64,000 nt of DNA from the UHGV virus genome UHGV-0311442. One strand, given 5' to 3'. Source of the stretch: a virus. The notes under the pieces are model-generated. The model was not told where the DNA came from and made no database searches. It saw only the letters and a program-made list of their open reading frames with translations. This document shows, piece by piece, positions 8,658-49,121 of the stretch (within the stretch, counting starts at the first letter, position 1; each line of letters begins with the position of its first letter). Position numbers and translations under genes: made by a program.

Positions 8658-8679
8658 AACTCTGTTCCTTTAGGGAATG

Positions 8680-8717
8680 AAAATAAAAGTACCCCTTACT
8701 CCGTATAGGGTAAGGGG
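8680..8717 (-). terminator. rho-independent terminator
   Basis: hairpin CCCCTTAC...GTAAGGGG with T-run on minus strand. Confidence 0.45.
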
Positions 8718-8723
8718 TAGAGG

Positions 8724-29654: not shown

Positions 29655-29667
29655 GGAGATTTTTTTG

Positions 29668-32600: not shown

Positions 32601-33849
32601 AGCGTGTAAGCTGGGGATTGGTTCTCGTTCAGATTCTGCTGTTACGGATATCCCGTTAGTGATGGAGGAATCTGGGGAAACGGCGGTGGTGGCAACGTTT
32701 AAGGATGTGTTGTTCAACGGCGAGGAAACCAACGCAGCGATACTCGACTTGATAGGCTGGGGTCCAAATAAAGACAAAATCTCTGCAAACCATGCGCCAC
32801 GTGGTATGATTCGTTATCGTTACAACGTAAACACTCGGGTATTACGTTTAGCACTCTCATTCTCACAGTTCGGAACGACAACAGTTAAGCAACGTCAGTT
32901 GGAAATTCAATTCCCGTTTGATTTAGTGGATTACTTCACCGGTGACGGTGTAGGGTTGTCGTTTAAAGAACTGTCTGCGAAATGCCGTGTAACGATTAGC
33001 CACGCACTGATTGATCCGGTCACGACTAAAATCGATATTGATAAGTACCATTACTTACGCTCGTTATTTGAGTCGTATTTGGACGCATCTGTTGGTTATT
33101 TGGCTGATACCAAAGACGTCGACTTTAGTCAGTCTGTGATTGACCCAGCGACTTATGAGATTAGTCAGAAATACCGCGTTACCGAAAGCATTGCGCTGCC
33201 GACCGGCCAGGGAAGTGTTGCTGTTTCCCATGACGGCCAGTTACCTGCGCAGTTCTTTGACCGTAAGCTTTCTCGTGGTGCTTTGATGGCCAAGAAAGGT
33301 GAACTTCATGCCTCCTGGAACAATGAGTGGAGTACATCCAAAGCTGCCGCAAACCGGTATCGGCATAAACTCATTCTACGCTTTGCGCAAGGTGCTGATA
33401 AACAGCAGTACCGTGTTGCAAAAGTGGCAGGAACGGTGAAGTGTAACTGGCCGGGTAAGGTGATTATCGGCGATGCTGGGAAGGACGCGTATGTATCAGC
33501 TATTGATAGCGTGCCGTTTGCGCTTTCGACCAGCGCGGACACAGGTAAAGCAGTTACCCTTACGCCAAAGGATCTACGTGTAGGGCAGGATATTTATATT
33601 GTCTTAGAACCACCGGGTAATAATCCTGAAGGCTACGAGCTTAACTTTACCTGTTCGTTAGATGTCACTGACGAGAACGGTGTTCGTCAAGACCAACTCA
33701 ATGCGCAGAGCTTCGAACTCCGTAGCGGCGAAAGTCAATTCTTAATGGAGAAACGCAATCCGTACCACATCACGAGTAAAGCGTGGAAGTGGATTTTGGC
33801 TGTACTGAAACGAGAACTTAACGGGAAGCAGTTAGGGAATCGTACTTAG
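29668..33849 (+). CDS. tail fibre protein (1393 aa)
   Basis: AAGGAGA RBS; classical fibre motifs KATTAEKGVAKLKTGKGTETTGVAATPASL and ADLGLGRADNTADVDKPLSTELNTALSG. Confidence 0.7.
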   Translation: MKAYPYDPRGTKAENHFLEERIIGSENNNDRVVILDHRPFFEDLVVRQPGSTTPLSRGVDYELQYQLTELDDSVAANVYCGVHLINPSIKGIVTFEGQMLGGTFYDPFVDILDELVKYLNNPVSADWLLLDGRPSLYPATPAATSWADLLNKKYLASAVHDIELKTDDANQLIKDKLAEVKALVTALGKEIEAFNYPAHIAAKNPHETTSAQINAHPVNLKTPDTFMAYGLKLKALTDELKAFRLPQSVIDTYISHWISSEVRGVFNCTVSGNRAQFRSKNGESEIIFANDGFTLKSNGSVVLAVGHLEGTGAGRYINWRAGKNTLRIESTGDALGMNKLTLNGNPLLTTTALMEYQQDPDAGSGGGGDPDDSKVYIEGRNGISFTGKGSRADPIVGTIDPTKATTAEKGVAKLKTGKGTETTGVAATPASLAPYSTDLSGYVAKTTMINGKPMNDGSRTITKADLGLGRADNTADVDKPLSTELNTALSGLADAGHHHDWSELGIYKASQTVYGIGRYATNQNGLVENRAVVPNVLKELSARLDVVAAAIANAKEGSVTDFAAVKGADWRFNSQGTAISVQDLKYFYLLNGAKADSAVTGSIDLQTTPMFNWFSPNNQIETTWPTGKVSAGKGISWTGIEEPPLMGFQSVPVGKTASQMGDQSVVTVLAKTRVRARQPKLWVYAAGGGPVTVYINGIQAATGQSPLVAVYETSADVENYTVAVKAECSDTAKSAAVQFEIYDGDYPVYFSGPETHVELLQEFVTTHVGIRHYLYVNMLTGSLYSRTEPIQSIAVDPERGYIGYVDIVAGESYSNKTVSFETTFDFGKSTEVSEHIDARKAHGLSSVDWTLTDNPRLPLLNRAIAEPRTCIFRKALTAGTGDVFHLVSRGLYTYAHNQNVKSSLQYVVIPEGATPYCWFTPFNPKENNAPTFEGSFAFDVDDVGGTQALTAAPDLVLCTSTQGSSVKRRYVRIDLTAKACKLGIGSRSDSAVTDIPLVMEESGETAVVATFKDVLFNGEETNAAILDLIGWGPNKDKISANHAPRGMIRYRYNVNTRVLRLALSFSQFGTTTVKQRQLEIQFPFDLVDYFTGDGVGLSFKELSAKCRVTISHALIDPVTTKIDIDKYHYLRSLFESYLDASVGYLADTKDVDFSQSVIDPATYEISQKYRVTESIALPTGQGSVAVSHDGQLPAQFFDRKLSRGALMAKKGELHASWNNEWSTSKAAANRYRHKLILRFAQGADKQQYRVAKVAGTVKCNWPGKVIIGDAGKDAYVSAIDSVPFALSTSADTGKAVTLTPKDLRVGQDIYIVLEPPGNNPEGYELNFTCSLDVTDENGVRQDQLNAQSFELRSGESQFLMEKRNPYHITSKAWKWILAVLKRELNGKQLGNRT

Positions 33850-33887
33850 GACAGGCTGCCTGCGGGCAGTTGTGTGTCCGTAGGTAA

Positions 33888-33924
33888 CCCCTCCCTGTAA
33901 TGGGGAGGGGTATCCATTTTATTT
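33888..33924 (+). terminator. rho-independent terminator
   Basis: hairpin CCCCTCCC-tgtaa-TGGGGAGGGG followed by TATCCATTTTATTT. Confidence 0.55.
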
Positions 33925-33943
33925 AAAAGTAGGAGTCTTTACG

Positions 33944-36900
33944 ATGCCGAGAGAAGACGCGGCGCAGTTTAACGGTACGCTAAGCACAGCGACGTACCCT
34001 AACCGATTTAACGTGGTCATTCCGCCTGAAGGACCTTTTTATCGTATCGGATTAAAACTCACAGTAGCCGACGATACCGCGCCTAACGGACGTCGTACTC
34101 TGATTGAGGGGTTGGACTACTATTTAGGCTATTACTTTAAAGAACTCGCAGAAGCTGAGCAAGATCAGATTTACGGCGGGTTCATGTTGCTGACCGCAAC
34201 AGAAATCGAATATGAGATTTTAGGGGTAGCACGCCAGTATCGTGTACCACAATCTGAAATCGGAAAGTTCTTAGTTCGTACTGACCTGAAAGACCCACGT
34301 AACGTGGACTGGTCAGAGTTAATGGCGTATGCGCCAGTTATTCAACCCATCGATCCTCCTGCTAACTTAGAAGAAGCTATTCTGAGGGATGAGGTTGTTA
34401 AAGCGTTAAACGATATCCGTAAGAAAATCGTTCAACGTTCAACAGAGTTAGATGCAGCGTTTACCGAAGTCACTAACCTGATTTACGAGAACGGTAAAAA
34501 GGTTTTCGACGAGGAGTTATACCAACACCACCTTAATCCTAACGCACACCAGTATACGACCACTGATGTTGGTGCCCTTCCGGTTTTGGGACGTGCTGTC
34601 GACGCTACAAAAGCGTTTGGACTGACGATTGACGAATTGGCTACGCTGATGGGTTCGGCGGGTATTGAGCAATCAGACGTTGATCAGTTAATGGGTGAAG
34701 CCCTTGGTACCGTTTACGGTCGTTGGGGTAGCACAAACGGTAACGAGCTGACGTTTAAAACCGCAGGCGGACACATCATCAGTATCCGTGGTGATAAGTG
34801 GTTAATTACCTCACCGCAACCGTTGGTGATTAAAGCAGACCAGGACAACAACGAATCGGGTTTGGCGGTTGAATTTAGTGCGGGACTGAATACGCTTTGG
34901 GTGCACTCTGGGACAGAACAGGATGTATTAGCGCCGGTTTACAACTCTGTGTATTTGGTTACACCAGAAATGGTGAACATGTACCTGACGTCTGTAACGT
35001 TACTTGAAGCAAATGCCTATTTCAAACCATCAGACAGCGTAAAACCATACGGTACAGCGAAGCAGTCTAATCCGCTAACGTTGAACGCGAATATTCCCAC
35101 AGCAACCGAGTCGGTTTATGGGGTGTTTTCGATTACGAATATCGCAACCTCCGTAGCACTAGGCACTGCTATTTCCCAAAAGGCGGTGACCGAATTAAAA
35201 GACCGGTTAGACTTGTACGTTGACGATGACTACACGGTTAACGGTAAAGGGTTTGTTAAGACAGGCGATAAAATGGTGTTAACCTTAACGAAAACCGATT
35301 TCGGTATCGATAAGATGGATAACACCATGCCGATCGCTAAACCGGTAACAAAAGCGTTAGCGAATGTGCTGAAAAATAAAAGTGTGAAGGAGCACACGCA
35401 CACTACCGCCGATTTGGATAATGTCCCGATTGGTAGTGCGACTGTAGATGGTATTTTACAGTTGTGGGATGCGATTGATGCCACGAATGATAAAGCCGTC
35501 ACGTCTCGTCAAGGGTGGTTGTTCGCAAAAGAGATCAAGAAGGTTTCCGATAAACTGAATACCATCTTACCTGCGTGGACTGTCGGTGGGGCGAAGTTCG
35601 GTAACAAAAACTTCTTACCCATTCCGGCACTCGGTAATTATTCAGGTTTTACAAAGAACCAGTCCTATCAGAAAGGCGTTGTAGGATATCAACAAGGTAA
35701 AGTTTATTCGTTACGTAATGCTTCTAATGGTGTACCTGGTACAGAGGCTATTTATTACGGTTATGCTGATATCAATACGTCGAATGCATTTGAGAACCCT
35801 CAGCAAACTTCGGTGAAATACCATCCTGCTGGGATGAGTAAATATCCTGGAGTGACCTTAAAAGCTATTTTGATCGGTGGTCAGGAAGCGATTATTTGTC
35901 TGGGTTCTGACAATAACCGTTATCTGGTCTTGTTCAATGGCTCGATGGACCACAGTAAGCACACAGTGGTGTGCCGTGTTACAATGCCGAATTATCGCGA
36001 TAATAGTCCCACTGGTTCAAACGAGATTCCGTGGAATCCTCGGCCAGAATCTGACGATGTTGTTCTGGTTGACGACCACGTTTACCTTCTTCGCTCCACG
36101 GTAAATAACGCTGCTTATGCCGTGGCGGCATGGCGTTTACGTAAAGCCGATTTGTCTACTAATGTTGCGTTAGAATTTGAACGTGTAACGTTAAATGGTG
36201 AAATGGGACAATTCGGAGATAACCTCTGCCTAAGAATTGGCCAGAAGACCGAAGAGTCGCAGACTGGTCAATTCTTCACGTATTACCCACCCGAGGCACG
36301 GGCTAAATGGACAATCGGTCACAACTTTGTCCATGGTCCAGAATGTAACCATGCTTGTGCGGTGCGTGACAGTGTGATTCGTGTGAATCATGTACCCACT
36401 GTGTGGTTTGCGGCTGCCGACGGTTCGACGATTAATTTCCGTCAATGGTCAACAAGTTTCACAATCGATACGTTAACGGGTAGAGTTACGTTGGAGGGTG
36501 CCGAACGTTTCCCCATTAAGGCTGATACTACCACACTGACGTTCGCGGATGGTTCAACTGTAGAAACCAGTCGTAAGTGGGGCGGTGGTCAAGCAAACAA
36601 TCGTTGTTTTGCAACGTATGCTAAACCTAACGGCACCGGAATGATGCTTTCCTGTTGGCAGGTTAACGATGCGGACCAGATGCCGAATGTTTCTATTAAA
36701 GGAACGCAAGGCAAAGAGTTTTTCGATTATTTGCGTTACGATAACCCGAACAATACCTCAGGCGAAGGAACGTTTACTTGGGATAAAGGCCGTGGTTCTA
36801 TCTATACCATCGGTCTTTCTCATCCTGTCGGTATCGGTGGTTCGAATAAGGTTTGGCTATCCAATCCACGCAACCGTTATACGATCGAAGTAGAAGTTGA

Positions 36901-39127
36901 CCCAAGTAAACCTTATGACGTTCCTGGATATAGCGGTTATGGCCCGAACAACAACCGTCGAGAAGTTGATGCAACCCTTTACGAACAGTTAAGCTGTATG
37001 GCTGCTTGCATGACTCCAGAGGAGCGTCACGGCCAGTTAAACGGTTGGTATTTGACGAAAGCGGAAACCTTCCCATATCGAAACATCTACGGTAACTTTG
37101 CCCTGTCATCAGAACGGCTGACGTTAGAGGAAGCGGATCGCCAGAAGATGATTAGGATGATTGTCGATGGTGCACCATCTGGTCAGGCAAACGGTTACGC
37201 GAACGAGCGCATCAGCGCAGCACACCAAAGCGGTAACGCGTTGTTTGCGCTCTGGTTGCTAGGCATTAACACTGTTTGTGAGTTCGACTTATTACAAGTC
37301 TCATGCATGAAAATCTTGAGTAACGGACGTCGAGTTCTCGACATCTATTATTTCATGGTGAGTCCGACTAAAGAAAACGGTTATCTACGTTTTAACTCGG
37401 CTACTTTCAAACTCGTTGATTGGTTCTTAGACCTTGATTACGGCTTAAGTTATCAGTCTCTGAGGGAAGAAGCGGGTAATAAAACGCGACGTGTAGGCCA
37501 GCCAATTTTTGCTTCTGCCGACGGTGTAAACTTCGGTCTATGGCTACCTTATACGCTGACAATACGGAATATCGGGGACCTAAATGCTTTGGGTTACGCT
37601 GCGAAGTATACCTTCGACCCTGGGTCGGGTTGGACTCGCGTTCCCGGTAAGTCACAATTGCGTCGGATGGCCCCTGCTCATAATCCCGAAACAGGCTGCT
37701 ACATGGGTGCGGGTAATTGGGACAAGATGGCACTAATTTTCTCTAAAGCAGATCGTGTCTTCTGTTCAGGTAACGCATATACAGCCGAAGAGTTCGTTAA
37801 TGACACCAGATTCACAACTGGGGGACAGGCGGTTATTATCGCTGGTGTGGAAACTGCCGAAGGTTGGATTCTATATTTGACGGAAGAGGTCAGGTTAGAT
37901 TTCGGTAGTAATAGCTATACATTACCGACGTGGTTGGTGGATTTAAGCAATGAATTCCCAGAAAACCATGCTAACCAGACGTTCTATGTTCATGCTGCTC
38001 TTGTAGGTTCGAAAGCTCAATATCAGATCGGTCTGGAAAAGCTGCCGGATACGAGTTCGCGATTATTTGTTGGTACAGTTACAACCGATAAAAAGCGCAT
38101 AGTTGCTATTAACATCGATAAAGTGAAACGGTTAGGCAGGGTTCGTGAATTAGAAGAACACGCTGCTGTTAGAGATCAGCACGACGTTGCAGCGGCGTAC
38201 GATCGAAAAACGGGTCCACTCCAAACCTTGGTTAACCAACCGCTGAAAGCCCCCACGGCATCTGCGGGCAAGGGTGCAGGGTATGCCGATGGTCAGAGAT
38301 GGAATGCGTTGACCGGGATCACAACACGTCCCAAACTGCCGATACAGGAAACCTACGCAGGTTATAAAAGTATCGGTAGAGTAGCGTATGAGAACTGCGC
38401 TGATCAGTTCTGGCAGAAAGCGGTCGCTGCAAACGTTGCAGCGGCTACTGCGTCTGAGAACAGTCAAGCGGCAGCCGCGAACATGAAGTGGTTGGGCGCG
38501 TATACGAAACCGACTACAGGTGCGAATGCATATCTGGCGCTGAGTCTGCGTGTTAAAGTGCCTGGTAATCCCGGCACCGCTAATCGTAGACTAAAAATCA
38601 GGCTTGCGGCTCCGACAGGTATAACCCAAGTTCGTTACGGGTTAAACCAGTCTGGTGGCACGATGACTGAACAGACAGTAACGTTAACTGCTAACAGTTA
38701 TCTGGAAAAAGAACACGCCGGATTTAAGCCAGCCGAAGAAGTCCGTGTACATGCTACGTTTGTCATTCCAAAAAATGAATACGATAGCTACCGTACGAAG
38801 TTCGGTGCTGTTCAGCTGATTGACGTTGAGTCGAACACTGTCATTAAACAGACAGATATCGACACACCGTTTATCGTGTATACCGACACGGAGTTAGCAG
38901 CGCAATCTGGTTTGGTGTATAAAGCGGTTAAGGGTCAGTTCCATCAACTCCCGTCTCAACCTGTCGTCATTGTAACTGATGGACAGACAGGGACTACGCC
39001 ACCGGTGAAAACCTCGTTTGCTGACGGGACATTAACGGTCTACGTGGCAACCACGTACGATGCGGTTAACCCAGCACAAACCCGCGATATCGATAAGCTC
39101 CAGTTCAATCTTATGTTTACATCTTAA
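33944..39127 (+). CDS. tail fibre / receptor-binding protein (1727 aa)
   Basis: shares N-terminal GPFY...DYxLxY module; largest ORF of the operon. Confidence 0.6.
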   Translation: MPREDAAQFNGTLSTATYPNRFNVVIPPEGPFYRIGLKLTVADDTAPNGRRTLIEGLDYYLGYYFKELAEAEQDQIYGGFMLLTATEIEYEILGVARQYRVPQSEIGKFLVRTDLKDPRNVDWSELMAYAPVIQPIDPPANLEEAILRDEVVKALNDIRKKIVQRSTELDAAFTEVTNLIYENGKKVFDEELYQHHLNPNAHQYTTTDVGALPVLGRAVDATKAFGLTIDELATLMGSAGIEQSDVDQLMGEALGTVYGRWGSTNGNELTFKTAGGHIISIRGDKWLITSPQPLVIKADQDNNESGLAVEFSAGLNTLWVHSGTEQDVLAPVYNSVYLVTPEMVNMYLTSVTLLEANAYFKPSDSVKPYGTAKQSNPLTLNANIPTATESVYGVFSITNIATSVALGTAISQKAVTELKDRLDLYVDDDYTVNGKGFVKTGDKMVLTLTKTDFGIDKMDNTMPIAKPVTKALANVLKNKSVKEHTHTTADLDNVPIGSATVDGILQLWDAIDATNDKAVTSRQGWLFAKEIKKVSDKLNTILPAWTVGGAKFGNKNFLPIPALGNYSGFTKNQSYQKGVVGYQQGKVYSLRNASNGVPGTEAIYYGYADINTSNAFENPQQTSVKYHPAGMSKYPGVTLKAILIGGQEAIICLGSDNNRYLVLFNGSMDHSKHTVVCRVTMPNYRDNSPTGSNEIPWNPRPESDDVVLVDDHVYLLRSTVNNAAYAVAAWRLRKADLSTNVALEFERVTLNGEMGQFGDNLCLRIGQKTEESQTGQFFTYYPPEARAKWTIGHNFVHGPECNHACAVRDSVIRVNHVPTVWFAAADGSTINFRQWSTSFTIDTLTGRVTLEGAERFPIKADTTTLTFADGSTVETSRKWGGGQANNRCFATYAKPNGTGMMLSCWQVNDADQMPNVSIKGTQGKEFFDYLRYDNPNNTSGEGTFTWDKGRGSIYTIGLSHPVGIGGSNKVWLSNPRNRYTIEVEVDPSKPYDVPGYSGYGPNNNRREVDATLYEQLSCMAACMTPEERHGQLNGWYLTKAETFPYRNIYGNFALSSERLTLEEADRQKMIRMIVDGAPSGQANGYANERISAAHQSGNALFALWLLGINTVCEFDLLQVSCMKILSNGRRVLDIYYFMVSPTKENGYLRFNSATFKLVDWFLDLDYGLSYQSLREEAGNKTRRVGQPIFASADGVNFGLWLPYTLTIRNIGDLNALGYAAKYTFDPGSGWTRVPGKSQLRRMAPAHNPETGCYMGAGNWDKMALIFSKADRVFCSGNAYTAEEFVNDTRFTTGGQAVIIAGVETAEGWILYLTEEVRLDFGSNSYTLPTWLVDLSNEFPENHANQTFYVHAALVGSKAQYQIGLEKLPDTSSRLFVGTVTTDKKRIVAINIDKVKRLGRVRELEEHAAVRDQHDVAAAYDRKTGPLQTLVNQPLKAPTASAGKGAGYADGQRWNALTGITTRPKLPIQETYAGYKSIGRVAYENCADQFWQKAVAANVAAATASENSQAAAANMKWLGAYTKPTTGANAYLALSLRVKVPGNPGTANRRLKIRLAAPTGITQVRYGLNQSGGTMTEQTVTLTANSYLEKEHAGFKPAEEVRVHATFVIPKNEYDSYRTKFGAVQLIDVESNTVIKQTDIDTPFIVYTDTELAAQSGLVYKAVKGQFHQLPSQPVVIVTDGQTGTTPPVKTSFADGTLTVYVATTYDAVNPAQTRDIDKLQFNLMFTS

Positions 39128-39167
39128 CGCCACGAGACAAGGACGTCTCGGATTAAGGAGAGTGGCC

Positions 39168-40367
39168 ATGGCCTCCATTGTATATCAGTACCCTTTAGAT
39201 TTAACGGGAACCCTAACCTCTAACGCCGTGGAGCGTCAGGTTACGTTAGGTACAGGTAAAGTTAACCGTGCGTTTGCTTTTCCTGACGGACCGTTTTATG
39301 CTGATACGTTCCGCTTGCGGGTTGCCAATCGACCCGACGCGACGTATGAACGCGGAACGGACTATGAGTTGATTTTTGCACACCCGGGTTACGAGAAATT
39401 GACGAAGAACCGGGAAGTGGTAATGGCGGTTGTTGTAACGAACACCGCGATTCCGACCGATATCACGGTATCGGCGCAAGTAGTCGGTGGTCCGCAGTCT
39501 GCAAACGTGACTGCGATAGAACAGGCGATTGCCGAGTTGAATCTCGATAATCGAACTGTTGGCTTTAAAGACTTGCGAAATGTGCCGGACACGTTTCCTT
39601 CGGCACCAACGTATAAAGACGTCGGCGATATTTACGGCTTCGAATATATCATTACAGTGCTCGCTGGCATCAAAGATGCGATAACGGCGGGTGATGCTGT
39701 ACAGCTTGAGAACATCAAAGCGATTCTCGAAAGCCTGAAAAACGATTTCCTGGACGCGCTGAACGCGCACATTAACGCCACGGGTAATGTCCACCATCTG
39801 GATATTCATCAGGTTAACGGGTTAACAGAAACGGAGATCCGTGCACTTATCCGTGACGTACAATCTGCCATCGATGCAACCATTACTGATATTAATGCGT
39901 TGAAGAAAGCAGACGAAGCGTTAGGAAAACGTATTGATGCTGTTGTCAAATCTTTGGAAGCGTGGAACGACCAACTTAACATCGTTGCCCAAAACTACCA
40001 GAAGATGGCATTGGCATTGGCGAACCTAAATTCGCTAGTGTTACAGTTACAGAAAAATATCAACGATCTGAACACCAAACTCAACCAAGCGATTCAGCGC
40101 ATTGCTGCGTTAGAACAACGGGGTAATGAGTCCGATCAGAAAATTGATAATCTGCAACAAAACCTGGATGCGCTTAAACAACAGGTTGCGAATAACACGA
40201 ACGCAATCAGTCAGGCGAATCAGAACCTACAAAACCATATTGCGGCGGATAACCCGCACACAGGTTATCTCCACAAGAAATACGGCGGTGTGGTTCAGGC
40301 TCCAGTGCACGTTAACGCTAACTTGACGTCCCGTGATGACGTTCAGGCAGAAGCGGGTACGAAATAA
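39168..40367 (+). CDS. tail fibre-associated protein with C-terminal coiled coil (400 aa)
   Basis: start re-set to ATG 39168 with AAGGAGAG RBS; N-terminal FPDGPFY...DYELIF module; heptad-like Q/N/L-rich C-terminus. Confidence 0.55.
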   Translation: MASIVYQYPLDLTGTLTSNAVERQVTLGTGKVNRAFAFPDGPFYADTFRLRVANRPDATYERGTDYELIFAHPGYEKLTKNREVVMAVVVTNTAIPTDITVSAQVVGGPQSANVTAIEQAIAELNLDNRTVGFKDLRNVPDTFPSAPTYKDVGDIYGFEYIITVLAGIKDAITAGDAVQLENIKAILESLKNDFLDALNAHINATGNVHHLDIHQVNGLTETEIRALIRDVQSAIDATITDINALKKADEALGKRIDAVVKSLEAWNDQLNIVAQNYQKMALALANLNSLVLQLQKNINDLNTKLNQAIQRIAALEQRGNESDQKIDNLQQNLDALKQQVANNTNAISQANQNLQNHIAADNPHTGYLHKKYGGVVQAPVHVNANLTSRDDVQAEAGTK

Positions 40368-40376: not shown

Positions 40377-40423
40377 AGGAGGAACTATGCTTATGGGCGT
40401 AGTCCTCCATTCTTTTTTATTTT
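40377..40423 (+). terminator. rho-independent terminator (likely partial)
   Basis: stem AGGAGG...CCTCC followed by ATTCTTTTTTATTTT. Confidence 0.5.
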
Positions 40424-40434: not shown

Positions 40435-40830
40435 ATGGCGATCAGTGTTAAAAATGTACGTGACCGAATCACCAACGTAGAGAACCAAATGGCAACTGGC
40501 CCACGTGTTGATCCGCAAGTTGCGTCGAAAGCACATAATGCCGCCGACACTTTTTCGGGTTGGACGCCAAGTCGGTTAGACTGCGGGGGAAGCTGTAGCT
40601 GGACGTGCTCAAACGGTTGTACGCATGGCTGTACGAGTTGTTCGGGCACCTGTACGTCGGTGTGTGTAGGTAGCTGCTCCTCTGCGTGCGGTAACCAGTG
40701 TACTGGATGTAGTTCAACGTGTTCTGGTGGCTGTTCAGGTTGCAGTGGGACCTGTGGAGGTGCTTGCTCGGGCCGTTGTTCTACGGGTTGTTCTGGTGCT
40801 TGCTCCGGTGGCTGTTCTGGCCCAACCTAA
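40435..40830 (+). CDS. Cys-rich repeat peptide precursor A (leader + (C-x3)n core, ~21 Cys)
   Basis: AAGGA RBS; N-terminal ~50 aa ordinary sequence then DCGGSCSWTCSNGCTHGCTSCSGTC... of only C/S/G/T/N/A/V. Confidence 0.6.
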   Translation: MAISVKNVRDRITNVENQMATGPRVDPQVASKAHNAADTFSGWTPSRLDCGGSCSWTCSNGCTHGCTSCSGTCTSVCVGSCSSACGNQCTGCSSTCSGGCSGCSGTCGGACSGRCSTGCSGACSGGCSGPT

Positions 40831-40840
40831 GAGGTGAAAA

Positions 40841-41239
40841 ATGGCAATTGGATTACCTGCGCTACAAGCGCGGCTAAATAACATTGACAACACTGCATTG
40901 AAGAATACGGGTGCAGTACAAAACTATATTCGTGGGAAAGCGACGAACAACGCAGACCTATTCGGTGGGCAAGCTCGCAACCACTATGACTGCGGGGGAA
41001 GCTGTAGCTGGACCTGTTCGAGCTGTTCTGGTGGTTGTACAGGGAACGCATCAGGCGGCTGTGGCTCTTCCTGTTCTGCAAACTGTGTATCAGGTTGTAG
41101 CGCGGGCTGTAGTGGATGTTCGAATACCTGTTCTGGTGGCTGCTCAGGAAGCTGTACGGGGAGTTGTTCTAACTCGTGTGTAGGAAACTGTTCTGCAGGC
41201 TGCTCTGGTGCTTGCTCCGGTGGCTGTTCTGGGAGGTAA
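40841..41239 (+). CDS. Cys-rich repeat peptide precursor B
   Basis: AGAGGTGA RBS; leader shares NADLFGG and YDCGGSCSWTCS junction with A; CxxxC repeats. Confidence 0.6.
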   Translation: MAIGLPALQARLNNIDNTALKNTGAVQNYIRGKATNNADLFGGQARNHYDCGGSCSWTCSSCSGGCTGNASGGCGSSCSANCVSGCSAGCSGCSNTCSGGCSGSCTGSCSNSCVGNCSAGCSGACSGGCSGR

Positions 41240-41241
41240 TT

Positions 41242-41448
41242 GTGATTAGCCTTAAGAACCTTCGTGATCGGTTAGTAACAGCGGAAGGGTATATTACGAC
41301 CGCTAACGCAAACAACTATATTGCAAACCAGGGCACCGTGTCTTCAACCAATAACCTTGCCGGTTTACCTTTAAGCCATTATAACTGTAACGGCGGATGT
41401 AGCTGGTCGTGCAGTGGTAGCTGTAGTAAAGGTGCGGGGGGAAGGTAA
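41242..41448 (+). CDS. Cys-rich peptide precursor C (short core), GTG start
   Basis: GGGAGG 5 nt before GTG at 41242; ISLKNLRDRL leader resembling A; core YNCNGGCSWSCSGSCSKGAGGR. Confidence 0.5.
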   Translation: MISLKNLRDRLVTAEGYITTANANNYIANQGTVSSTNNLAGLPLSHYNCNGGCSWSCSGSCSKGAGGR

Positions 41449-41597
41449 CTAAGCCCTCCAGTGGTAGTATGTCTATTACGCAATAACCGAGTTAATCGTA
41501 CGGGTTTACTACTGAGTTTCAAGTTACCGGTAGGCAATGGTGCGGTGGTTTCTATACCCTGAATGTCCGTTTGACCGTGAAATAATTGGAGCAATCA

Positions 41598-42485
41598 ATG
41601 AAGAATGATTTACATTTAGCGTACAAAACAATTTTCAATCATCCACTTCACATTTCTTCCCCTGATTCCGTACGTGCACACTTAGCAGATGAAGTTCGTC
41701 TGTTGACTCAGTTGCCGGGCGAATGGCCTAAAGTGCGCGGACGTTTCTTTACCGATCGTAAAAACTATCGTGTGGAAAATACGTTTAAGATTCGTGATCT
41801 GACGGCAGAAAGTGTAGTGGTCTTTACCGGTGACTCCGAGTTGCGTGGTAAACTGGTTGCGGGTAAATATTTCTTTAGTGACGGGATTTTGAATAACTCC
41901 GTAGATATGGAATTGTTCTTTACCCCATTTGAAGAAATGGGCGCAAAACCAGTTGCCCGTCGTTGGTGGTCGCCGGATTACTTAGGCTCGTTCCCGTATT
42001 TCTTTACCCTGGTAACACCAGAAACGAAGAACTATTTCGATACGGAATCGTATATCGAAATTGAAGGGTACGAAGCGTTAGGGATTAATTGCTTAGCGGA
42101 TTTAATGGCGTATAGCTATAAGTTCGTGTGGGATCGTGAACGTTCCGTGTGGGTTGCCCTGACGGATGAACACGAAATTACAAAACGCATCCGTAAGCCT
42201 TGGATGCAGCATTTGATTCAAACGCGTATTGGCGAGCATCCGTCAACAGAAGCGGATCTGGCAAAACTCGTTAGTTTCTTAATGACGAAAGTCACGTTAA
42301 CTGACGAAGAGAAAGCAGCAGTGTCGGCGGTGTTGGACCGTAACGTAACGTTAGCGGATTTAGAACGTTTAAATGTCCGTTATAAAGACCTTAATCGTAT
42401 TTTGGAAGCGTATAACTCTCCATTCTTGTTAACCCCTGGTGCTAACGTAGACGACGATCCTTTGTTCGCCATTGATTATATTTAA
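41598..42485 (+). CDS. hypothetical protein (295 aa), cassette accessory
   Basis: GGAG RBS before ATG 41598; sits between precursor genes and radical SAM genes. Confidence 0.5.
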   Translation: MKNDLHLAYKTIFNHPLHISSPDSVRAHLADEVRLLTQLPGEWPKVRGRFFTDRKNYRVENTFKIRDLTAESVVVFTGDSELRGKLVAGKYFFSDGILNNSVDMELFFTPFEEMGAKPVARRWWSPDYLGSFPYFFTLVTPETKNYFDTESYIEIEGYEALGINCLADLMAYSYKFVWDRERSVWVALTDEHEITKRIRKPWMQHLIQTRIGEHPSTEADLAKLVSFLMTKVTLTDEEKAAVSAVLDRNVTLADLERLNVRYKDLNRILEAYNSPFLLTPGANVDDDPLFAIDYI

Positions 42486-42506
42486 AAACGACCGGAGTCA
42501 CCTGCA

Positions 42507-43430
42507 ATGACAACCAATGCAGAACCAAGGTTATCGAATCGTTTATACGATAAACCCACCGTATTGTCCGTAGTCGCTACGTCCAAGTGTAACCTGGATT
42601 GTAGCTTCTGCGGTGGAGCCTATTACATGAATCGTGAAGATTCTCCGCGAGAGTTTCAACGTGAGCGAATTTTGGAAGCGCTGGAAGCTAATCCAACCAT
42701 TACCGAAATTCAGTGGACGGGTGGTGAGCCATTACTGGCAACCCGTAAAATTGAGGCGTTTGTTGACGAATTAAAAGTGATTCGTCCAGAACTCAAACAC
42801 CAGTTGTATACCAATGGCTTAAAGATGCGTAAATCGCATCTCCCGTTGCTAAAACAGTTTGACAATGTCTACGTTAGCATCGATGGGTTTAAGTCGTCTG
42901 AGCGCCCGTTTATGCGCTTTATTGACGAAGGCTGTTACGAAGCACTGGAAACGATCTACGAGCTGGATAATGTCCAGACTTGGGGTGTCCTGACACGGGA
43001 CCGTTTAGGGGACAAACGCTGGCACGAAGATATTATTCAGCTGCACAGCGCGATTTACCATTACGGTTTCCGTGCAATGACGTTACTCTTAGATGCGAAA
43101 ATGCCAAAACCTTTATCGCCTGACCACGTCATGAACTTTATTTACGGCTACTATCAGGTTCAGGACAACATTGAACGTCTGAATGTAGTAAATGGACGTG
43201 AATGTGGCTTTACGGTAAGTAAAGTGTTTGAAGAAGGGTGTAACGTTTGCAGCGAAAGTCTTTGGATTAATGCAGACGGTGGTGAGCACCAACTCCAGAA
43301 TGCACCTAACGTTCTGGAATCGGGATGTAACCAACTGGCCTTCTCTATCGGTGTAGAGGCGTACGAATATATTCGTCGCGTAGTGATGGCAGGACGTAAT
43401 AGAGGGGCGGCAAATGAGCCAAGCAAATGA
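42507..43430 (+). CDS. radical SAM enzyme (307 aa)
   Basis: CNLDCSFCGG (CxxxCxxC) and GGEPLL SAM-binding motif; extra C-terminal Cys (CNVCSE...GCNQ). Confidence 0.7.
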   Translation: MTTNAEPRLSNRLYDKPTVLSVVATSKCNLDCSFCGGAYYMNREDSPREFQRERILEALEANPTITEIQWTGGEPLLATRKIEAFVDELKVIRPELKHQLYTNGLKMRKSHLPLLKQFDNVYVSIDGFKSSERPFMRFIDEGCYEALETIYELDNVQTWGVLTRDRLGDKRWHEDIIQLHSAIYHYGFRAMTLLLDAKMPKPLSPDHVMNFIYGYYQVQDNIERLNVVNGRECGFTVSKVFEEGCNVCSESLWINADGGEHQLQNAPNVLESGCNQLAFSIGVEAYEYIRRVVMAGRNRGAANEPSK

Positions 43431-44736
43431 ATTCCCTAAGCAGTTAACGTATCAGATCGTAACCAACCTTTCGTGTAACCTGGACTGCGAATATTGTTAC
43501 GAACGTAAGTACCCGCGTAACAACAAAGCGGCCGACATTGTTGATTTCTTACACGCCTGTTTTGAACGTGATAAAAACGAACCGAATGTTGAAGTTATTA
43601 TCGACATTATCGGCGGTGAACCGTTCATGCAGCCTAAGTTGCTGCTGGCAGCGTTTGAAACCGCAGAGCAGTTGTGTAAAGAACACAACCGTCCGTTTAT
43701 GTTTAGTATCTCCACGAACGGGACCTTGTTAGATCGTCCGTTGAACCGTGAGATTGTAGAACGTTGGAAAGACAAACTTTCGGTTGGGGTTTCGATTGAT
43801 GGCTTGCCTGAGTCCCATGACCGTTATCGTATCTTCACAACAACGCGCCAGGGTTCTTACGAAGCCGCAGTACGTGGCTATAATTACTTAAAAGAGGTTG
43901 GCATTGCAGAACTCGGCGTAAAAGCGACCTTTACGTTAGAAACACTGCCGTTCTATGCTGCAGGGATGAAGTCATTAATTGACATTACTGGCGGTGGGAC
44001 AATTTCTGGGAACGTAACCTTCGAAGACGTTATGCCACGTAGCATGGCGACGTCAATCGCTTTACAGATGATGGATGTGATAGATTATTGGGTTGAGAAA
44101 GGATTACACACCAACCCACGTAATATCTTATCGCACATCATTCCAGAAGGGTTGGATTTCGATACGATTTGGGAACCGAACTGGCGTGACCAGTTACTGT
44201 ATAATGACACCGTACGGTTGAACCCAGAACGTTTACGTCCGTTCTGTGGGACGTTAACGCACATGACGTGCTTAGGATTTGACCGTAAGATCTTTGGCTG
44301 TAACCGCTTTATGTCAACGGTAACGTCGCGTTCTGCGGTGTTTGAGTTGGTAGGTCGGGAATTCGTCAGTCTGGACAACGGTAAATTGTTAGAAGAGATT
44401 CAAACGCAATATACCAACTACCCAGAGACCTGTTTAGGTTGTCCGATGAAACACGCTTGTGGTAGCTGTGCGGCGGCTTCTTACGAGAACGGGGAAGGAA
44501 CGTTAGAAGACCGTAAAGCGTATCACGCTGAACGTCGTCAGTGTGGCTGGACGACAGCGAAACTGATGGTGGCGGAATACTGGAAACAGAAGATGGGTAC
44601 GACGTCAGCAAAAGCGTTCCACGACACGAGCATGTGTTATTGCCCACGCTGTGTTCGTGAACGTGCCCAAAAGGAAAAATTATTAAGAGAAGCCAAAGAT
44701 GAAACCAATTCTGATCAACAATATTACGAAGCGTAG
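43414..44736 (+). CDS. radical SAM enzyme with SPASM-like C-terminal domain (440 aa)
   Basis: CNLDCEYCYE and GGEPF motifs; C-terminal CLGCPMKHACGSC cluster typical of SPASM/twitch auxiliary Fe-S domains; 17-nt overlap with upstream gene. Confidence 0.7.
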   Translation: MSQANEFPKQLTYQIVTNLSCNLDCEYCYERKYPRNNKAADIVDFLHACFERDKNEPNVEVIIDIIGGEPFMQPKLLLAAFETAEQLCKEHNRPFMFSISTNGTLLDRPLNREIVERWKDKLSVGVSIDGLPESHDRYRIFTTTRQGSYEAAVRGYNYLKEVGIAELGVKATFTLETLPFYAAGMKSLIDITGGGTISGNVTFEDVMPRSMATSIALQMMDVIDYWVEKGLHTNPRNILSHIIPEGLDFDTIWEPNWRDQLLYNDTVRLNPERLRPFCGTLTHMTCLGFDRKIFGCNRFMSTVTSRSAVFELVGREFVSLDNGKLLEEIQTQYTNYPETCLGCPMKHACGSCAAASYENGEGTLEDRKAYHAERRQCGWTTAKLMVAEYWKQKMGTTSAKAFHDTSMCYCPRCVRERAQKEKLLREAKDETNSDQQYYEA

Positions 44737-45271
44737 AATTCGACTTCTGGATAAGTTTCTGGAAAACAGTAAGCTATTCGGTTGTTATGTGGTGATTAAC
44801 GGTGAAGATTTTACCGATGACGTAAAACGCTTACTGATTCGTCACGGTGTGACTGTAATCATCCCAATGTACTGCACCGAACTTACTGACCTGTCGGTCG
44901 CGGAAATTGAAAAACGTAACCCAGGGTTTGAAGAACGGGTATTGGATTTCCCACGTCACAAAATTGCGTTTCTACGCCGCTCTTTAAGCGAACCCAGCGC
45001 AGAATCTATCACTGTGTTGGCATTGTCCTTCCCCGGCATTACTATCTTCGCAACACGTAACCCGAACTCACCGATTGATGGGTTTTACGATGAGCGAGAG
45101 AAATTTAATACCGTGATTTTTCCTGAGCTAACGCCAGAAGAATGCCAGGGTATCCGTATCGATTGGGAATCGGACTTCGACACAAGATTCCGTCATATCG
45201 ATTTTGAACTGTTAATCGAATTAGGGTTGATTAAAGGAGACGATGAATGTCTGCTACTGGTGAAGGCTTAA
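44699..45271 (+). CDS. hypothetical protein (190 aa), cassette accessory
   Basis: ORF track; overlaps preceding gene by 38 nt. Confidence 0.45.
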   Translation: MKPILINNITKRRIRLLDKFLENSKLFGCYVVINGEDFTDDVKRLLIRHGVTVIIPMYCTELTDLSVAEIEKRNPGFEERVLDFPRHKIAFLRRSLSEPSAESITVLALSFPGITIFATRNPNSPIDGFYDEREKFNTVIFPELTPEECQGIRIDWESDFDTRFRHIDFELLIELGLIKGDDECLLLVKA

Positions 45272-45918
45272 CGAAAGAAGAAATCCGTCGCCGTTATTTT
45301 GCGCACGATTTACCGATTGACCGTCATGGTAACTACATGGAGAAAATCGGTAGTGAAGATCACGGCCGTACAGGGTTTTGTGCGTTACTGCACTATAAGT
45401 TGATTGATGGGATGTCTGATCGCGAAGCATTGGAACAAATGCGTAACTACGACATGTCTGAAATCGAAGCACGGTTTACGCTACAGAAAGCGAAAGACTT
45501 TGTTAACGACACGTTGGGGATTGACCTGGAAGAAATTCGTGCAGGTTTACGTTCCACGGTGCGGTACATCTTTACCGATGTTCAGAAAATTCTAAGCGCT
45601 CTGGAATTCCGTTATCAGGATGCGCGCTATGCTGAGATTCAGGTAGGTGATTTCACTTTCCAGGCAGATGAGAAGTCACAGGTAGCACTGAGTCGTTATA
45701 TCCAGTCAGAAACTGCGCCAGCGTATTGGTTAACGGCTAACAACACCCGTATCGAACCGTTTACGTTAGAACAGTGCAAGACGTTGCTGGCAGCAATCGT
45801 TGAGCGCGATCAAAGACTACACCACGCAATGTCTGAGCAGAAAAGAGAAGTCAGAGCTTGGGCTGAAGCACGTGATTACGATTCAATTAAAGCGTTTGCG
45901 TTAGAGCAAGGGCTGTAA
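45247..45918 (+). CDS. hypothetical protein (223 aa), cassette accessory
   Basis: GGAG RBS; last gene before bidirectional terminator. Confidence 0.5.
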   Translation: MSATGEGLTKEEIRRRYFAHDLPIDRHGNYMEKIGSEDHGRTGFCALLHYKLIDGMSDREALEQMRNYDMSEIEARFTLQKAKDFVNDTLGIDLEEIRAGLRSTVRYIFTDVQKILSALEFRYQDARYAEIQVGDFTFQADEKSQVALSRYIQSETAPAYWLTANNTRIEPFTLEQCKTLLAAIVERDQRLHHAMSEQKREVRAWAEARDYDSIKAFALEQGL

Positions 45919-45926: not shown

Positions 45927-45982
45927 GAAAAAAAATAGTATACCTACCTCCTATTACGGGAGGTAGGTATTTTTATTTTTTC
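45927..45982. terminator. bidirectional rho-independent terminator
   Basis: hairpin TACCTACCTCC-tattacg-GGAGGTAGGTA flanked by A8 and TTTTTATTTTTT. Confidence 0.65.
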
Positions 45983-49005: not shown

Positions 49006-49121
49006 TACCCACACCTTCCCTTATAGAAACCAGAAAAATTCGCATCCACGCTTTTCGTCTTTACGTTTTCGTCCAGACGTTAACGCTTTCCACAATAGTG
49101 CTAAGAGTTTAGCAAACCAGT

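What the first reader, a model, noticed from the sequence alone, without database searches (positions are those of the whole stretch)
40435..45918. Tail-fibre-embedded cassette: three Cys-repeat precursors plus two radical SAM enzymes
Directly downstream of four tail-fibre genes and bounded by terminators (40377-40423 and 45927-45982) lies a compact same-strand unit: three tandem genes for leader-plus-cysteine-repeat peptides, an unknown 295-aa gene, two overlapping radical SAM genes (the second with a SPASM-like Cys cluster), and two more overlapping unknown genes. This is the canonical layout of a RiPP biosynthetic cluster, here in a lytic-phage structural region and with no exporter or leader peptidase visible. 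The products could be crosslinked peptides released at lysis, or radical-SAM-modified Cys-rich virion/fibre components. Either would be unusual for a phage.
Basis: partly seen in the sequence, partly recalled or inferred. Interest (0 to 1): 0.93.

Follow-up and report, generated by a model that had tools for sequence, protein, structure and literature searches.

The report
Radical-SAM maturation module for tail-fibre tips
A giant Salmonella phage encodes, right after its tail-fibre genes, three small cysteine-every-fourth-residue proteins plus two radical SAM enzymes and a helper; the same enzyme set sits beside fibres that end in the same cysteine repeat in unrelated phages, so it most likely cross-links the fibre tip chemically rather than making a secreted peptide.

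Summary
Eight same-strand genes (40435-45918) lie between two real terminators: three Cys-repeat ORFs, a 295-aa unknown, two radical SAM genes (the second with a full SPASM domain), a 190-aa unknown and a DUF4376 protein.

The window is an SPN3US-like jumbo Salmonella phage, and the cassette is conserved across that group. There the Cys ORFs are mostly unannotated or annotated in the wrong frame.

The decisive evidence is comparative. Distant homologues of the SPASM enzyme (33-40% identity) occur with a second radical SAM gene and a homologous accessory protein in a P2-like Campylobacter prophage, in lambda-like siphophage modules and in metagenomic phages. Each time they sit directly after a tail-fibre gene whose C-terminus is the same CXXX repeat, often with the same junction motif (Y-x-C-x-G-C-S-W-T-C). 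In 76 of 80 viral loci with a relative of the enzyme, a Cys-repeat ORF lies within 3.5 kb, against none in 587 kb of remaining flank.

The enzyme is closest to thioether-forming maturases (CteB, PapB) and to NCBIfam's uncharacterised "CXXX-repeat target" family, but scores below all curated cut-offs.

Best reading: RiPP-type cross-linking of a virion fibre tip. The chemistry and virion location are inferred, not shown. I found no literature on this.

The parts
25332..40367 (+). Four tail-fibre or baseplate-fibre genes (25332-29654, 29665-33849, 33944-39127, 39165-40367) that precede the cassette.
   Evidence: ORFs. By position and SPN3US gene numbering they correspond to gp170, gp169, gp168 and gp167, all detected in SPN3US virions (PMC5694885 supplement); synteny is shown directly for the last three only. 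gp168 is a tail protein related to phiKZ gp131 (PMC5105663). The last gene matches phrog_2163 (E 9.5e-103), the same PHROG as the fibre gene next to a bona fide TIGR04115 enzyme in L048.
40378..40423 (+). Intrinsic terminator between the last fibre gene and the cassette.
   Evidence: Stem 40378-40408 followed by AUUCUUUUUUAUUUU. MFE -21.4 kcal/mol, z -4.7, 0 of 200 shuffles as stable.
40435..40830 (+). Cys1, 131 aa: N-terminal amphipathic helix, N-A-A-D-x-F-x-G motif, junction DCGGSCSWTC, then about 20 CXXX/CXX units to the C-terminus.
   Evidence: phrog_6085 E 1.5e-40. TIGR04114 14.4 bits against a cut-off of 20. dN 0.07-0.26 in the closer relatives with saturated dS. Conserved in all SPN3US-like loci.
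40841..41239 (+). Cys2, 132 aa, paralogue of Cys1: K-A-T-N-N-A-D-L-F-G-G-Q...Y-D-C-G-G-S-C-S-W-T-C.
   Evidence: phrog_6085 E 2.5e-39. TIGR04114 19.4 bits against 20. The junction is nearly identical to the fibre of the Deferribacter prophage L006, KATNADQLGGQAGSYYRCSDCSWTC. In the AF2 model only the N-terminal helix 5-36 is ordered and the repeat region has pLDDT below 50.
41242..41448 (+). Cys3, 68 aa (GTG start), a short paralogue with the same N-terminal helix and junction (Y-N-C-N-G-G-C-S-W-S-C-S-G-S-C) but only 5 Cys.
   Evidence: phrog_6085 E 2.3e-24. Orthologues in SPN3US and in the Erwinia phage. The exact sequence is on 43 contigs of up to 224 kb labelled Salmonella enterica.
41449..41597 (.). 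149-nt spacer between the substrate genes and the enzyme genes.
   Evidence: No structure beyond chance (z +0.5). No Rfam match.
41598..42485 (+). Accessory protein, 295 aa (phrog_8030): the third conserved component of the module.
42507..43430 (+). Radical SAM enzyme A, 307 aa: CX3CX2C at residues 28-35 plus three conserved C-terminal Cys (C-x-x-C-S ... G-C).
   Evidence: PF04055 E 6e-14. phrog_1802. Best solved relative is SkfB, E 3e-6. Conserved Cys in the alignment of 11 homologues. Naturally fused to enzyme B in P0109.
43414..44736 (+). Radical SAM/SPASM enzyme B, 440 aa: CX3CX2C at residues 21-28, no N-terminal RRE domain, eight SPASM cysteines.
   Evidence: PF04055. Best NCBIfam hits are PapB at 116.8 bits and TIGR04115 full length at 114.7 bits, both below their cut-offs. 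The profile matches CteB (5wgg) at E 8e-38 over the radical SAM and SPASM regions, then anSME at 1e-16. Invariant or near-invariant Cys 278, 286, 296, 340, 343, 349, 352, 377.
44699..45271 (+). Unknown 190-aa protein (phrog_7988), specific to the jumbo-phage group.
   Evidence: No Pfam, NCBIfam or PDB match. Not seen in the P2-like or lambda-like versions of the module.
45247..45918 (+). DUF4376 protein, 223 aa (phrog_8169), possibly a fibre-assembly factor.
   Evidence: PF14301 E 4.8e-11. Weak matches to tail-fibre PHROGs 1807 and 2837. The SPN3US homologue gp161 is absent from the virion list.
45940..45970 (.). Bidirectional intrinsic terminator that closes the cassette and the convergent gene 45983-46513.
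   Evidence: 13-bp perfect stem flanked by A and U runs. MFE -26 kcal/mol, z -6.3.

Best explanation
The cassette is a maturation module for the distal end of a tail fibre.

The three small proteins are split-off fibre-tip modules. Each has a short N-terminal heptad-patterned helix, then an N-A-D-x-L-x-G motif, then the junction Y-x-C-x-G-x-C-S-W-T/S-C, and then Cys at every fourth residue (C-S/T-G-small) to the very C-terminus.

During late infection, in the reducing cytoplasm, radical SAM/SPASM enzyme B works together with radical SAM enzyme A and the 295-aa accessory protein. The accessory protein supplies the substrate recognition that enzyme B lacks, since B has no RRE domain. Using SAM-derived 5'-deoxyadenosyl radicals, the enzymes convert many of the roughly 45 cysteine thiols into thioether (sactionine- or ranthionine-type) cross-links. 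The result is a covalently stapled tip that resists proteases and reductants.

The modified proteins are then mounted on the fibre (gp167-like, phrog_2163), possibly as a Cys1/Cys2/Cys3 trimer and perhaps helped by the DUF4376 protein. There they take part in host adsorption.

Shown: gene content, conservation, enzyme family relations, co-occurrence with Cys repeats, and fusion of the repeat to fibres in other phages.

Inferred: that the enzymes act on these proteins, the thioether chemistry, the role of the accessory protein, and virion incorporation of the small proteins.
For: (1) The same trio (accessory protein, radical SAM A, radical SAM B) follows a tail-fibre gene whose C-terminus is the Cys repeat in several unrelated settings. 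These are a P2-like Campylobacter prophage (L004: baseplate J, tail I, fibre ...GCNGCSGSCSGSCSSGC..., accessory, B, A, DUF1353, sheath), lambda-like modules after GpJ (L006, L087), and metagenomic phages (L018, L088, L090).

(2) The junction is shared between fibres and the small proteins. L006 has KATNADQLGGQAGSYYRCSDCSWTC and window Cys2 has KATNNADLFGGQARNHYDCGGSCSWTC.

(3) 76 of 80 viral loci with a relative of enzyme B carry a same-strand Cys-repeat ORF within 3.5 kb, against 0 in 587 kb of the remaining flanks.

(4) A bona fide TIGR04115 enzyme (L048, 470 bits against a cut-off of 350) and a near-member (L022, 308 bits) sit after baseplate wedge, tail protein and tail-fibre genes.

(5) The nearest characterised relatives of enzyme B form Cys thioethers: CteB 5wgg at E 8e-38, and PapB as the top NCBIfam hit. 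Enzyme A's best solved relative is SkfB.

(6) A and B are fused in one natural protein, P0109.

(7) In SPN3US virions the neighbouring fibres gp167-170 are detected, but gp161-165 (enzymes and accessories) are not. That pattern is expected for assembly enzymes.

(8) In 138 of 175 top profile hits the Cys repeat ends within 15 aa of the C-terminus. Host proteins range from 105 to 1803 aa.

(9) There is strong purifying selection on all three Cys ORFs.
Against: No modification has been observed, so the chemistry is extrapolated from relatives that share only 25-30% identity.

Enzyme B scores far below every curated family cut-off: 115 against 350 for TIGR04115, and 117 against 340 for PapB. The acceptor residue used by PapB (Asp at +4) is mostly absent.

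The small proteins have never been shown in a virion. They were not in the SPN3US search database, so their absence is uninformative, but their presence is equally unproven.

AlphaFold gives no confident fold for the repeat (pLDDT 48).

The accessory protein has no recognisable RRE or chaperone fold.

The TIGR04115-type loci manage with one radical SAM enzyme, so the need for enzyme A is unexplained.

A terminator separates the cassette from the fibre genes.
Confidence: 0.55

Rival explanations
1. Classical RiPP. The three ORFs are leader-plus-core precursors, and their cross-linked products are released at lysis as toxins, signals or anti-competitor peptides. The position next to fibre genes is incidental.
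For: The layout is that of a RiPP cluster: tandem precursors, then enzymes, bounded by terminators. The enzyme is related to ranthipeptide and sactipeptide maturases. The repeat region is disordered in AF2, like a core peptide.
Against: There is no leader peptidase, exporter or immunity gene. In L004, L006, L018, L087, L088 and L090 the same repeat is covalently part of a 258-600-aa fibre protein. The module sits in structural tail regions of three different tail architectures. The repeat is C-terminal in proteins of up to 1803 aa.
Confidence: 0.1
2. The target is right but the chemistry is different. The enzymes act on the fibre-tip Cys repeats but do something other than make intrachain thioethers. 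Candidates are Cys-to-formylglycine conversion as in anSME, epimerisation, C-C links, or inter-chain links that lock the fibre trimer. Enzymes A and B may perform two different reactions.
For: anSME is the second-best solved relative, E 1.4e-16. There are two, and in L087 three, distinct radical SAM enzymes per module. The PapB acceptor Asp is missing, and the residues between Cys are S/T, G and small.
Against: The anSME substrate motif C-x-P/A-x-R is absent from the repeats. The closest relatives by a wide margin are thioether formers (CteB 133 bits against anSME 63 bits).
Confidence: 0.2
3. The Cys-repeat proteins are unmodified structural parts, held together by disulfides or metal ions after lysis. 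The radical SAM enzymes act on an unrelated substrate such as a nucleotide, cofactor or host protein.
For: Metal-binding repeats occur in other fibre tips, for example His-x-His iron sites in T4 gp37 (my own knowledge, not tested here). No direct link between enzyme and substrate has been demonstrated.
Against: Co-occurrence is 76 of 80 loci against 0 in the flanks. Scores against NrdG, QueE, viperin and MoaA models are far below their cut-offs: 34 against 131, 36 against 260, 39 against 180 and 44 against 284 bits. The enzyme belongs to the peptide-maturase SPASM clade.
Confidence: 0.08
4. The Cys-repeat ORFs are not genes. They would be open frames created by biased, repetitive sequence.
For: SPN3US and the Erwinia phage pEa_SNUABM_29 annotate other frames or the other strand here. 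Several alternative frames are open across the repeat. The exact Cys1 and Cys2 products are not called in the 15-billion-protein collection.
Against: Each has a strong Shine-Dalgarno sequence. Amino-acid identity is 55-92% across phages whose synonymous sites are saturated. The Cys register and the junction motif are conserved from jumbo phages to Deferribacter prophages. phrog_6085 and 911 profile hits support the family.
Confidence: 0.02

Closest known systems
NCBIfam TIGR04114 / TIGR04115 / TIGR04117: 'Cys-rich (CXXX) repeat radical SAM target' and 'radical SAM peptide maturase, CXXX-repeat target family'. These were defined by comparative genomics. No experimental characterisation is known to me.
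   Same: A period-4 Cys repeat is encoded next to a SPASM radical SAM enzyme without an N-terminal RRE. Enzyme B aligns over the whole TIGR04115 model (residues 10-371 to model positions 3-345 of 359). Cys2 reaches 19.4 bits against the cut-off of 20. Spacing and composition of the repeats are nearly the same in both classes. True members (L048) also sit in tail-fibre modules.
   Different: Enzyme B scores 115 bits against a cut-off of 350, and shares only 24-28% identity with that class. The jumbo, P2-like and lambda-like class adds a second radical SAM enzyme and a 250-295-aa accessory protein. It also has its own junction, C-S-W-T-C instead of C-S-G-L-C. The link to tail fibres is not part of the family names shown by the tools.
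CteB / SCIFF ranthipeptide maturase (PDB 5WGG)
   Same: Best solved relative: E 8e-38 over the radical SAM core and both auxiliary-cluster regions. It forms a Cys thioether in a Cys-rich peptide (established knowledge of the family).
   Different: The match starts at CteB residue 104, so the N-terminal RRE domain has no counterpart. The TIGR03974 score is 59.6 bits against a cut-off of 425. The substrate here has 20 or more Cys in a strict period and can be the end of a large protein.
PapB / freyrasin (NF047865)
   Same: Top NCBIfam hit, 116.8 bits. Its substrate carries a repeated C-x3-D motif and receives one thioether per repeat (my own knowledge of the published system), the closest precedent for one link per repeat unit.
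   Different: The score is below the cut-off of 340. Position +4 here is the next Cys, not Asp or Glu. Freyrasin is a small peptide, not a virion part.
QhpD / QhpC (quinohemoprotein amine dehydrogenase maturation, TIGR03906)
   Same: A SPASM radical SAM enzyme installs several Cys thioethers in a polypeptide that remains a structural subunit of a protein complex (established knowledge). It is among the hits at 60.7 bits.
   Different: The score is far below the cut-off of 453. QhpC has a leader removed by a dedicated peptidase and is exported. Nothing comparable is encoded here.
gp38-type tail-fibre adhesins of T2 / S16-like phages and Tfa proteins that stay on the fibre tip
   Same: A small protein is encoded just after the fibre gene, with an N-terminal attachment part and a C-terminal low-complexity Gly-rich repeat region at the very tip. 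This is an analogy of position and architecture, from my own knowledge.
   Different: There is no sequence relation, no cysteines and no modifying enzymes. This analogy was not tested here.

Membership tests
Radical SAM superfamily (PF04055) | CX3CX2C motif and a match to the core domain above the gathering score. | tested here: met
   Enzyme A scores 53 bits and enzyme B 57 bits against a cut-off of 29.5. The motifs are CNLDCSFC and CNLDCEYC.
SPASM-domain radical SAM enzymes | C-terminal set of 7-8 Cys for two auxiliary [4Fe-4S] clusters (C-x-C-G-x-C ... CX2CX5CX2-3C ... C). | tested here: met
   Enzyme B: C278, C286, C296, C340, C343, C349, C352 and C377 are invariant or at least 90% conserved in 19 homologues. 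It aligns to the SPASM region of CteB. Enzyme A has only three conserved C-terminal Cys, so it is not SPASM.
NCBIfam TIGR04115 (CXXX-repeat target maturase) | Score at or above the curated cut-off of 350 bits. | tested here: not met
   114.7 bits, though aligned end to end. For comparison, L048 scores 470.5 and L022 scores 307.8.
NCBIfam TIGR04115 (CXXX-repeat target maturase) | Encoded next to a protein with Cys at every fourth residue. | tested here: met
   Cys1-3 lie 1-3 kb upstream on the same strand. Spacing of 4 accounts for 82% of Cys-Cys intervals. 76 of 80 related loci show the pairing.
NCBIfam TIGR04114 (Cys-rich repeat) | Score at or above 20 bits. | tested here: not met
   Cys2 scores 19.4, Cys1 14.4 and Cys3 12.9 bits. 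This is borderline, since the period and composition agree.
PapB-type ranthipeptide maturase (NF047865) | Score at or above 340 bits, and a substrate with C-x3-D/E motifs. | tested here: not met
   116.8 bits. Asp and Glu do not appear among the common residues of the jumbo-phage repeats (none at 1% or more at any position).
SCIFF maturase CteB/ScfB (TIGR03974) | Score at or above 425 bits, and an N-terminal RRE domain. | tested here: not met
   59.6 bits. CX3CX2C starts at residue 21, and the alignment to 5wgg starts at CteB residue 104.
RiPP biosynthetic gene cluster (in the strict sense) | Precursor with a leader that is removed by a peptidase, and export of the product. | tested here: not met
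   No peptidase or transporter domain is found in any of the eight ORFs with Pfam, NCBIfam or PHROGs. In other phages the 'leader' is a whole fibre protein.
RiPP biosynthetic gene cluster (in the strict sense) | Post-translational modification of the ribosomal precursor by the adjacent enzyme. | not testable with these tools
   This needs co-expression and mass spectrometry.
Anaerobic sulfatase maturase (TIGR03942) | Score at or above 349 bits, and a substrate motif C/S-x-P/A-x-R. | tested here: not met
   59.2 bits. The motif is absent from Cys1-3.
   Enzyme A scores: NrdG2 33.9 against 131, QueE 35.5 against 260, viperin 38.9 against 180, MoaA 43.7 against 284. None is among the 25 best listed families for enzyme B.
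Virion tail-fibre component | Protein detected in purified virions or fibres. | not testable with these tools
   The SPN3US virion lists contain gp167-170 but could not contain the Cys ORFs, which are unannotated or annotated in the wrong frame. Fibre membership is inferred from the fused forms.

The most novel reading that the evidence does not exclude
Radical SAM enzymes install arrays of thioether cross-links in the C-terminal tips of phage tail fibres. This would be RiPP chemistry applied to a virion structural protein, producing a previously unrecognised kind of covalently stapled adsorption organelle. It would be shared by jumbo, P2-like and lambda-like phages and by many gut prophages. 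It would also mean that the uncharacterised 'CXXX-repeat target' radical SAM family is, in these viral loci, a phage-tail system rather than a natural-product pathway.
Probability: 0.45. Interest if true: 0.9.

Novelty: new variant of a known kind. Interest (0 to 1): 0.8.

Why it matters
Tail-fibre tips decide host range. They are the parts engineered for phage therapy and for tailocins.

If a widespread class of tips needs radical SAM maturation, three things follow. Such fibres cannot be transplanted or expressed without their enzymes. Their stability in reducing, protease-rich habitats such as the gut has a chemical explanation. Radical SAM peptide chemistry gains a new type of substrate: a structural protein with 20 to more than 150 modification sites.

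It would also give a function and a biological context to a curated but uncharacterised radical SAM family.

Finally, it exposes a systematic annotation gap. The Cys-repeat genes are missed or called in the wrong frame in reference genomes, including SPN3US, so they are invisible to proteomics.

Tried and rejected
- Structure of the Cys2 protein (AF2 with 21 sequences) gave pLDDT 48, so no fold search was attempted on it.
- The 149-nt spacer between the substrate and enzyme genes was tested as a possible attenuator and is no more structured than shuffles.
- The sigma-70 promoter scan found no more sites than shuffles give, so it does not locate a promoter.
- No tRNA genes or Rfam families are present in the window.
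- Literature: eight full-text searches found nothing relevant on SPN3US with radical SAM, CXXX repeat, TIGR04115, tail fibre with radical SAM, SPASM or thioether, or jumbo phage with radical SAM. The eLife hit concerned unrelated systems. The paper that I recall as defining these TIGRFAMs (Haft and Basu 2011) is not held, so I could not check whether a phage context was noted there.
- Pfam PF27846, precomputed on several Cys-repeat homologues, is not in the local Pfam copy, and its name could not be recovered.
- PDB sequence searches for the 190-aa and DUF4376 proteins found nothing.
- Readings as NrdG, QueE, viperin or MoaA were rejected on score.

Full report
**What is there**

The window is part of an SPN3US-like jumbo myophage. 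It shares about 72-74% nucleotide identity with Salmonella phage SPN3US and with Erwinia phage pEa_SNUABM_29 over the enzyme genes. Enzyme B is 93% identical at protein level to that of a 225-kb IMG/VR contig. The exact Cys3 protein occurs on 43 contigs of up to 224 kb labelled Salmonella enterica.

Between a terminator at 40378-40423 and a bidirectional terminator at 45940-45970 lie eight + strand genes. The terminators have z -4.7 and -6.3 against shuffles.

| Gene | Coordinates | Size |
|---|---|---|
| Cys1 | 40435-40830 | 131 aa |
| Cys2 | 40841-41239 | 132 aa |
| Cys3 (GTG start) | 41242-41448 | 68 aa |
| Unknown accessory protein | 41598-42485 | 295 aa |
| Radical SAM A | 42507-43430 | 307 aa |
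| Radical SAM/SPASM B | 43414-44736 | 440 aa |
| Unknown protein | 44699-45271 | 190 aa |
| DUF4376 protein | 45247-45918 | 223 aa |

That includes the absence of any peptidase or exporter.

Upstream are four long genes. By position and SPN3US gene numbering they correspond to gp170-gp167, which are all detected in purified SPN3US virions (PMC5694885 supplement). Synteny is shown directly for the last three. gp168 is a tail protein related to phiKZ gp131 (PMC5105663).

**The Cys ORFs are real genes**

Each has a Shine-Dalgarno sequence. All three are conserved in every SPN3US-like locus examined. dN is 0.06-0.29 in the closer relatives (up to 0.62 for Cys3 in the two most divergent loci) while synonymous sites are saturated, the same pattern as the enzymes.

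They belong to phrog_6085, of unknown function. Reference annotations nevertheless miss them. SPN3US annotates only a wrong-frame ORF over Cys2 (gp166, or gp100 in RefSeq). The Erwinia record annotates two opposite-strand ORFs across Cys1 and Cys2.

**The enzymes**

Both have CX3CX2C and match PF04055.

Enzyme B has all SPASM cysteines, conserved in 19 homologues, and no N-terminal RRE. Its best curated matches are PapB (117 bits) and TIGR04115, the 'CXXX-repeat target family' maturase (115 bits, aligned end to end). Both are far below their cut-offs. A profile of the family hits the SCIFF thioether maturase CteB (5wgg) at E 8e-38 over the core and SPASM regions, then anSME at 1e-16.

Enzyme A is shorter and has three conserved C-terminal Cys. 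Its best solved relative is SkfB. NrdG, QueE, viperin and MoaA are excluded by score.

**The decisive comparative result**

Homologues of enzyme B at 33-40% identity occur in quite different phages. Each time they come with a second radical SAM gene and a protein of about 250 aa, homologous to the C-terminal half of the 295-aa protein (E 3e-10 and 0.027 in the same register). Each time they lie directly after a tail-fibre gene:

- In a Campylobacter pinnipediorum P2-like prophage the order is baseplate J, tail protein I, fibre, accessory, B, A, DUF1353, sheath. The 384-aa fibre ends ...GCNGCSGSCSGSCSSGCTACSGCSGSCSG.
- In a Deferribacter lambda-like prophage, after GpJ, a 302-aa fibre reads ...KATNADQLGGQAGSYYRCSDCSWTCSSSCTGSC... 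to its end. This is almost the junction of window Cys2, KATNNADLFGGQARNHYDCGGSCSWTCSSCSGGC.
- Further cases are L087 (lambda-like, three radical SAM genes), L088, L018 (a 600-aa fibre-like protein), L090 (enzymes A and B fused into one 668-aa protein) and L091 (an uncalled small Cys ORF).

So the three small jumbo-phage proteins correspond to the C-terminal module of a fibre, split off as separate polypeptides. That module is a helix, the N-A-D-x-L-x-G motif, the junction and the repeat.

**Breadth**

A scan of IMG/VR with the enzyme alignment returned 80 loci. Of these, 76 have a same-strand Cys-repeat ORF within 3.5 kb (median gap about 1 kb, 65 of them upstream). None occurs in the other 587 kb of flanking sequence.

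Most of these loci belong to the TIGR04115 class. L048 scores 470 bits, above the cut-off. L048 and L022 sit after baseplate wedge, tail protein and tail-fibre genes of contractile-tail phages. The fibre gene next to L048's enzyme falls in phrog_2163, as does the window's last fibre gene.

The repeats are alike in both classes. A spacing of 4 accounts for 82-84% of Cys-Cys intervals and a spacing of 3 for 12-16% (28% in the five mid-class fibres). Position +1 is S/T, +2 is G and +3 is small. A hydrophobic residue marks the second or third unit: C-S-W-T-C against C-S-G-L-C.

A profile of the Cys proteins finds 911 cluster representatives (E at most 1e-3) among 1.84 billion proteins. Of the 175 best, 138 have the repeat ending within 15 residues of the C-terminus. 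These proteins range from 105 to 1803 aa.

**How it most likely works**

Shown:
- the conserved trio next to Cys-repeat fibre ends;
- the relation of enzyme B to thioether-forming SPASM maturases;
- the natural A-B fusion;
- the absence of the enzymes and accessories from the SPN3US virion lists, while the neighbouring fibres are present.

Inferred: enzyme B, with enzyme A and the accessory protein as substrate-presenting partner, converts the cysteines of the repeat into thioether cross-links in the reducing cytoplasm, where disulfides cannot form. This would give a covalently stapled tip. The tip stays on the fibre (fused forms) or is mounted on it (jumbo forms, perhaps as a Cys1/Cys2/Cys3 trimer, since all three share the same N-terminal heptad pattern).

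I put about 0.75 on 'the enzymes act on the repeats', about 0.7 on 'the repeats are fibre parts in the virion', and about 0.45-0.55 on the full statement including thioethers.

**What does not fit or is unknown**

- All family scores are below their cut-offs.
- The PapB acceptor Asp is absent.
- AlphaFold gives no fold for the repeat.
- The accessory protein has a confident model (pLDDT 87) but no structural relative.
- The role of enzyme A, of the 190-aa protein and of the DUF4376 protein is open.
- A terminator separates the cassette from the fibre genes.

**Comparison with what is known**

The kind of system is known: a SPASM radical SAM enzyme plus a Cys-rich ribosomal substrate. The repeat-enzyme pairing already has curated family names (TIGR04114, TIGR04115, TIGR04117).

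What appears new is the context. The substrate is the end of a tail fibre, the module is embedded in the tail morphogenesis regions of several phage architectures, and one class has two enzymes and a novel accessory protein.

Eight full-text searches found nothing relevant on this. The library lacks most subscription papers, and the TIGRFAM-defining paper could not be read. Prior mention therefore cannot be excluded. I classify the finding as a new variant of a known kind, of high interest.

Noticed in passing
L001 (SPN3US NC_027402) 7950-8979; L002 (Erwinia phage pEa_SNUABM_29) 7952-8974: Reference annotations miss the Cys-repeat genes. SPN3US annotates only a wrong-frame ORF (gp166, RefSeq gp100, 8426-8761) over the Cys2 homologue. 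The Erwinia record annotates two opposite-strand ORFs (8050-8262, 8497-8769) across Cys1 and Cys2, and only Cys3 correctly. The exact Cys1 and Cys2 products of the window are absent from the 15-billion-protein collection.
   Followed up: yes
P0109 / L090 3834-5840: A natural fusion of the two radical SAM enzymes (A at the N-terminus, B at the C-terminus, 668 aa). It is preceded by a fibre ending in a CXXX tip and by a 238-aa accessory homologue.
   Followed up: yes
L083 4493-5712: A different Cys-repeat type. Two proteins of about 200 aa carry C-x-C-x-C / C-x3-C arrays rich in N, Y and D (CTCNCNYSCTCNARCSCDC...) next to other radical SAM/SPASM genes in a 136-kb viral contig. This may be a sister system.
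   Followed up: no
L087 6306-9134: This lambda-like module carries three consecutive radical SAM genes (274, 301 and 377 aa) after a fibre with a short CXXX tip.
   Followed up: partly
window 48340-49014 (-) and L004 12068-12433: A DUF1353 protein (E 7e-15) lies 2.4 kb downstream of the cassette on the other strand. In the Campylobacter prophage a DUF1353 gene directly follows the radical SAM pair. RefSeq calls the SPN3US homologue a tail assembly chaperone. The recurring association is possibly meaningful.
   Followed up: partly
window 45983-46513 (-) and 46579-47109 (-): Two tandem 176-aa paralogues (DUF7941) lie convergent to the cassette. The first occupies the position of SPN3US gp160, an abundantly detected virion protein of 18.5 kDa. 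SPN3US has one copy at this position and the Erwinia phage has three.
   Followed up: partly
proteins P0172, P0173, P0181, P0186 and others: Several Cys-repeat homologues carry a precomputed hit to Pfam PF27846. This family is newer than the local Pfam copy, and its name and description could not be retrieved. It may already describe this domain.
   Followed up: partly
proteins P0205, P0208-P0212, P0215: Very long proteins (1460-1800 aa) have a C-terminal Cys-repeat region of 390-670 residues with 100-170 cysteines. Their genomic context was not examined.
   Followed up: no
window 41242-41448 product: The exact Cys3 protein is found on 43 contigs of up to 224 kb deposited as Salmonella enterica isolates (serovar Chester and others), and relatives under Shigella flexneri. 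This suggests the jumbo phage is often co-sequenced with, or carried by, clinical and food isolates.
   Followed up: no
window 49122-49712 (-): An endolysin gene with GH108 and PG_binding_3 domains lies within the same tail-proximal region.
   Followed up: no
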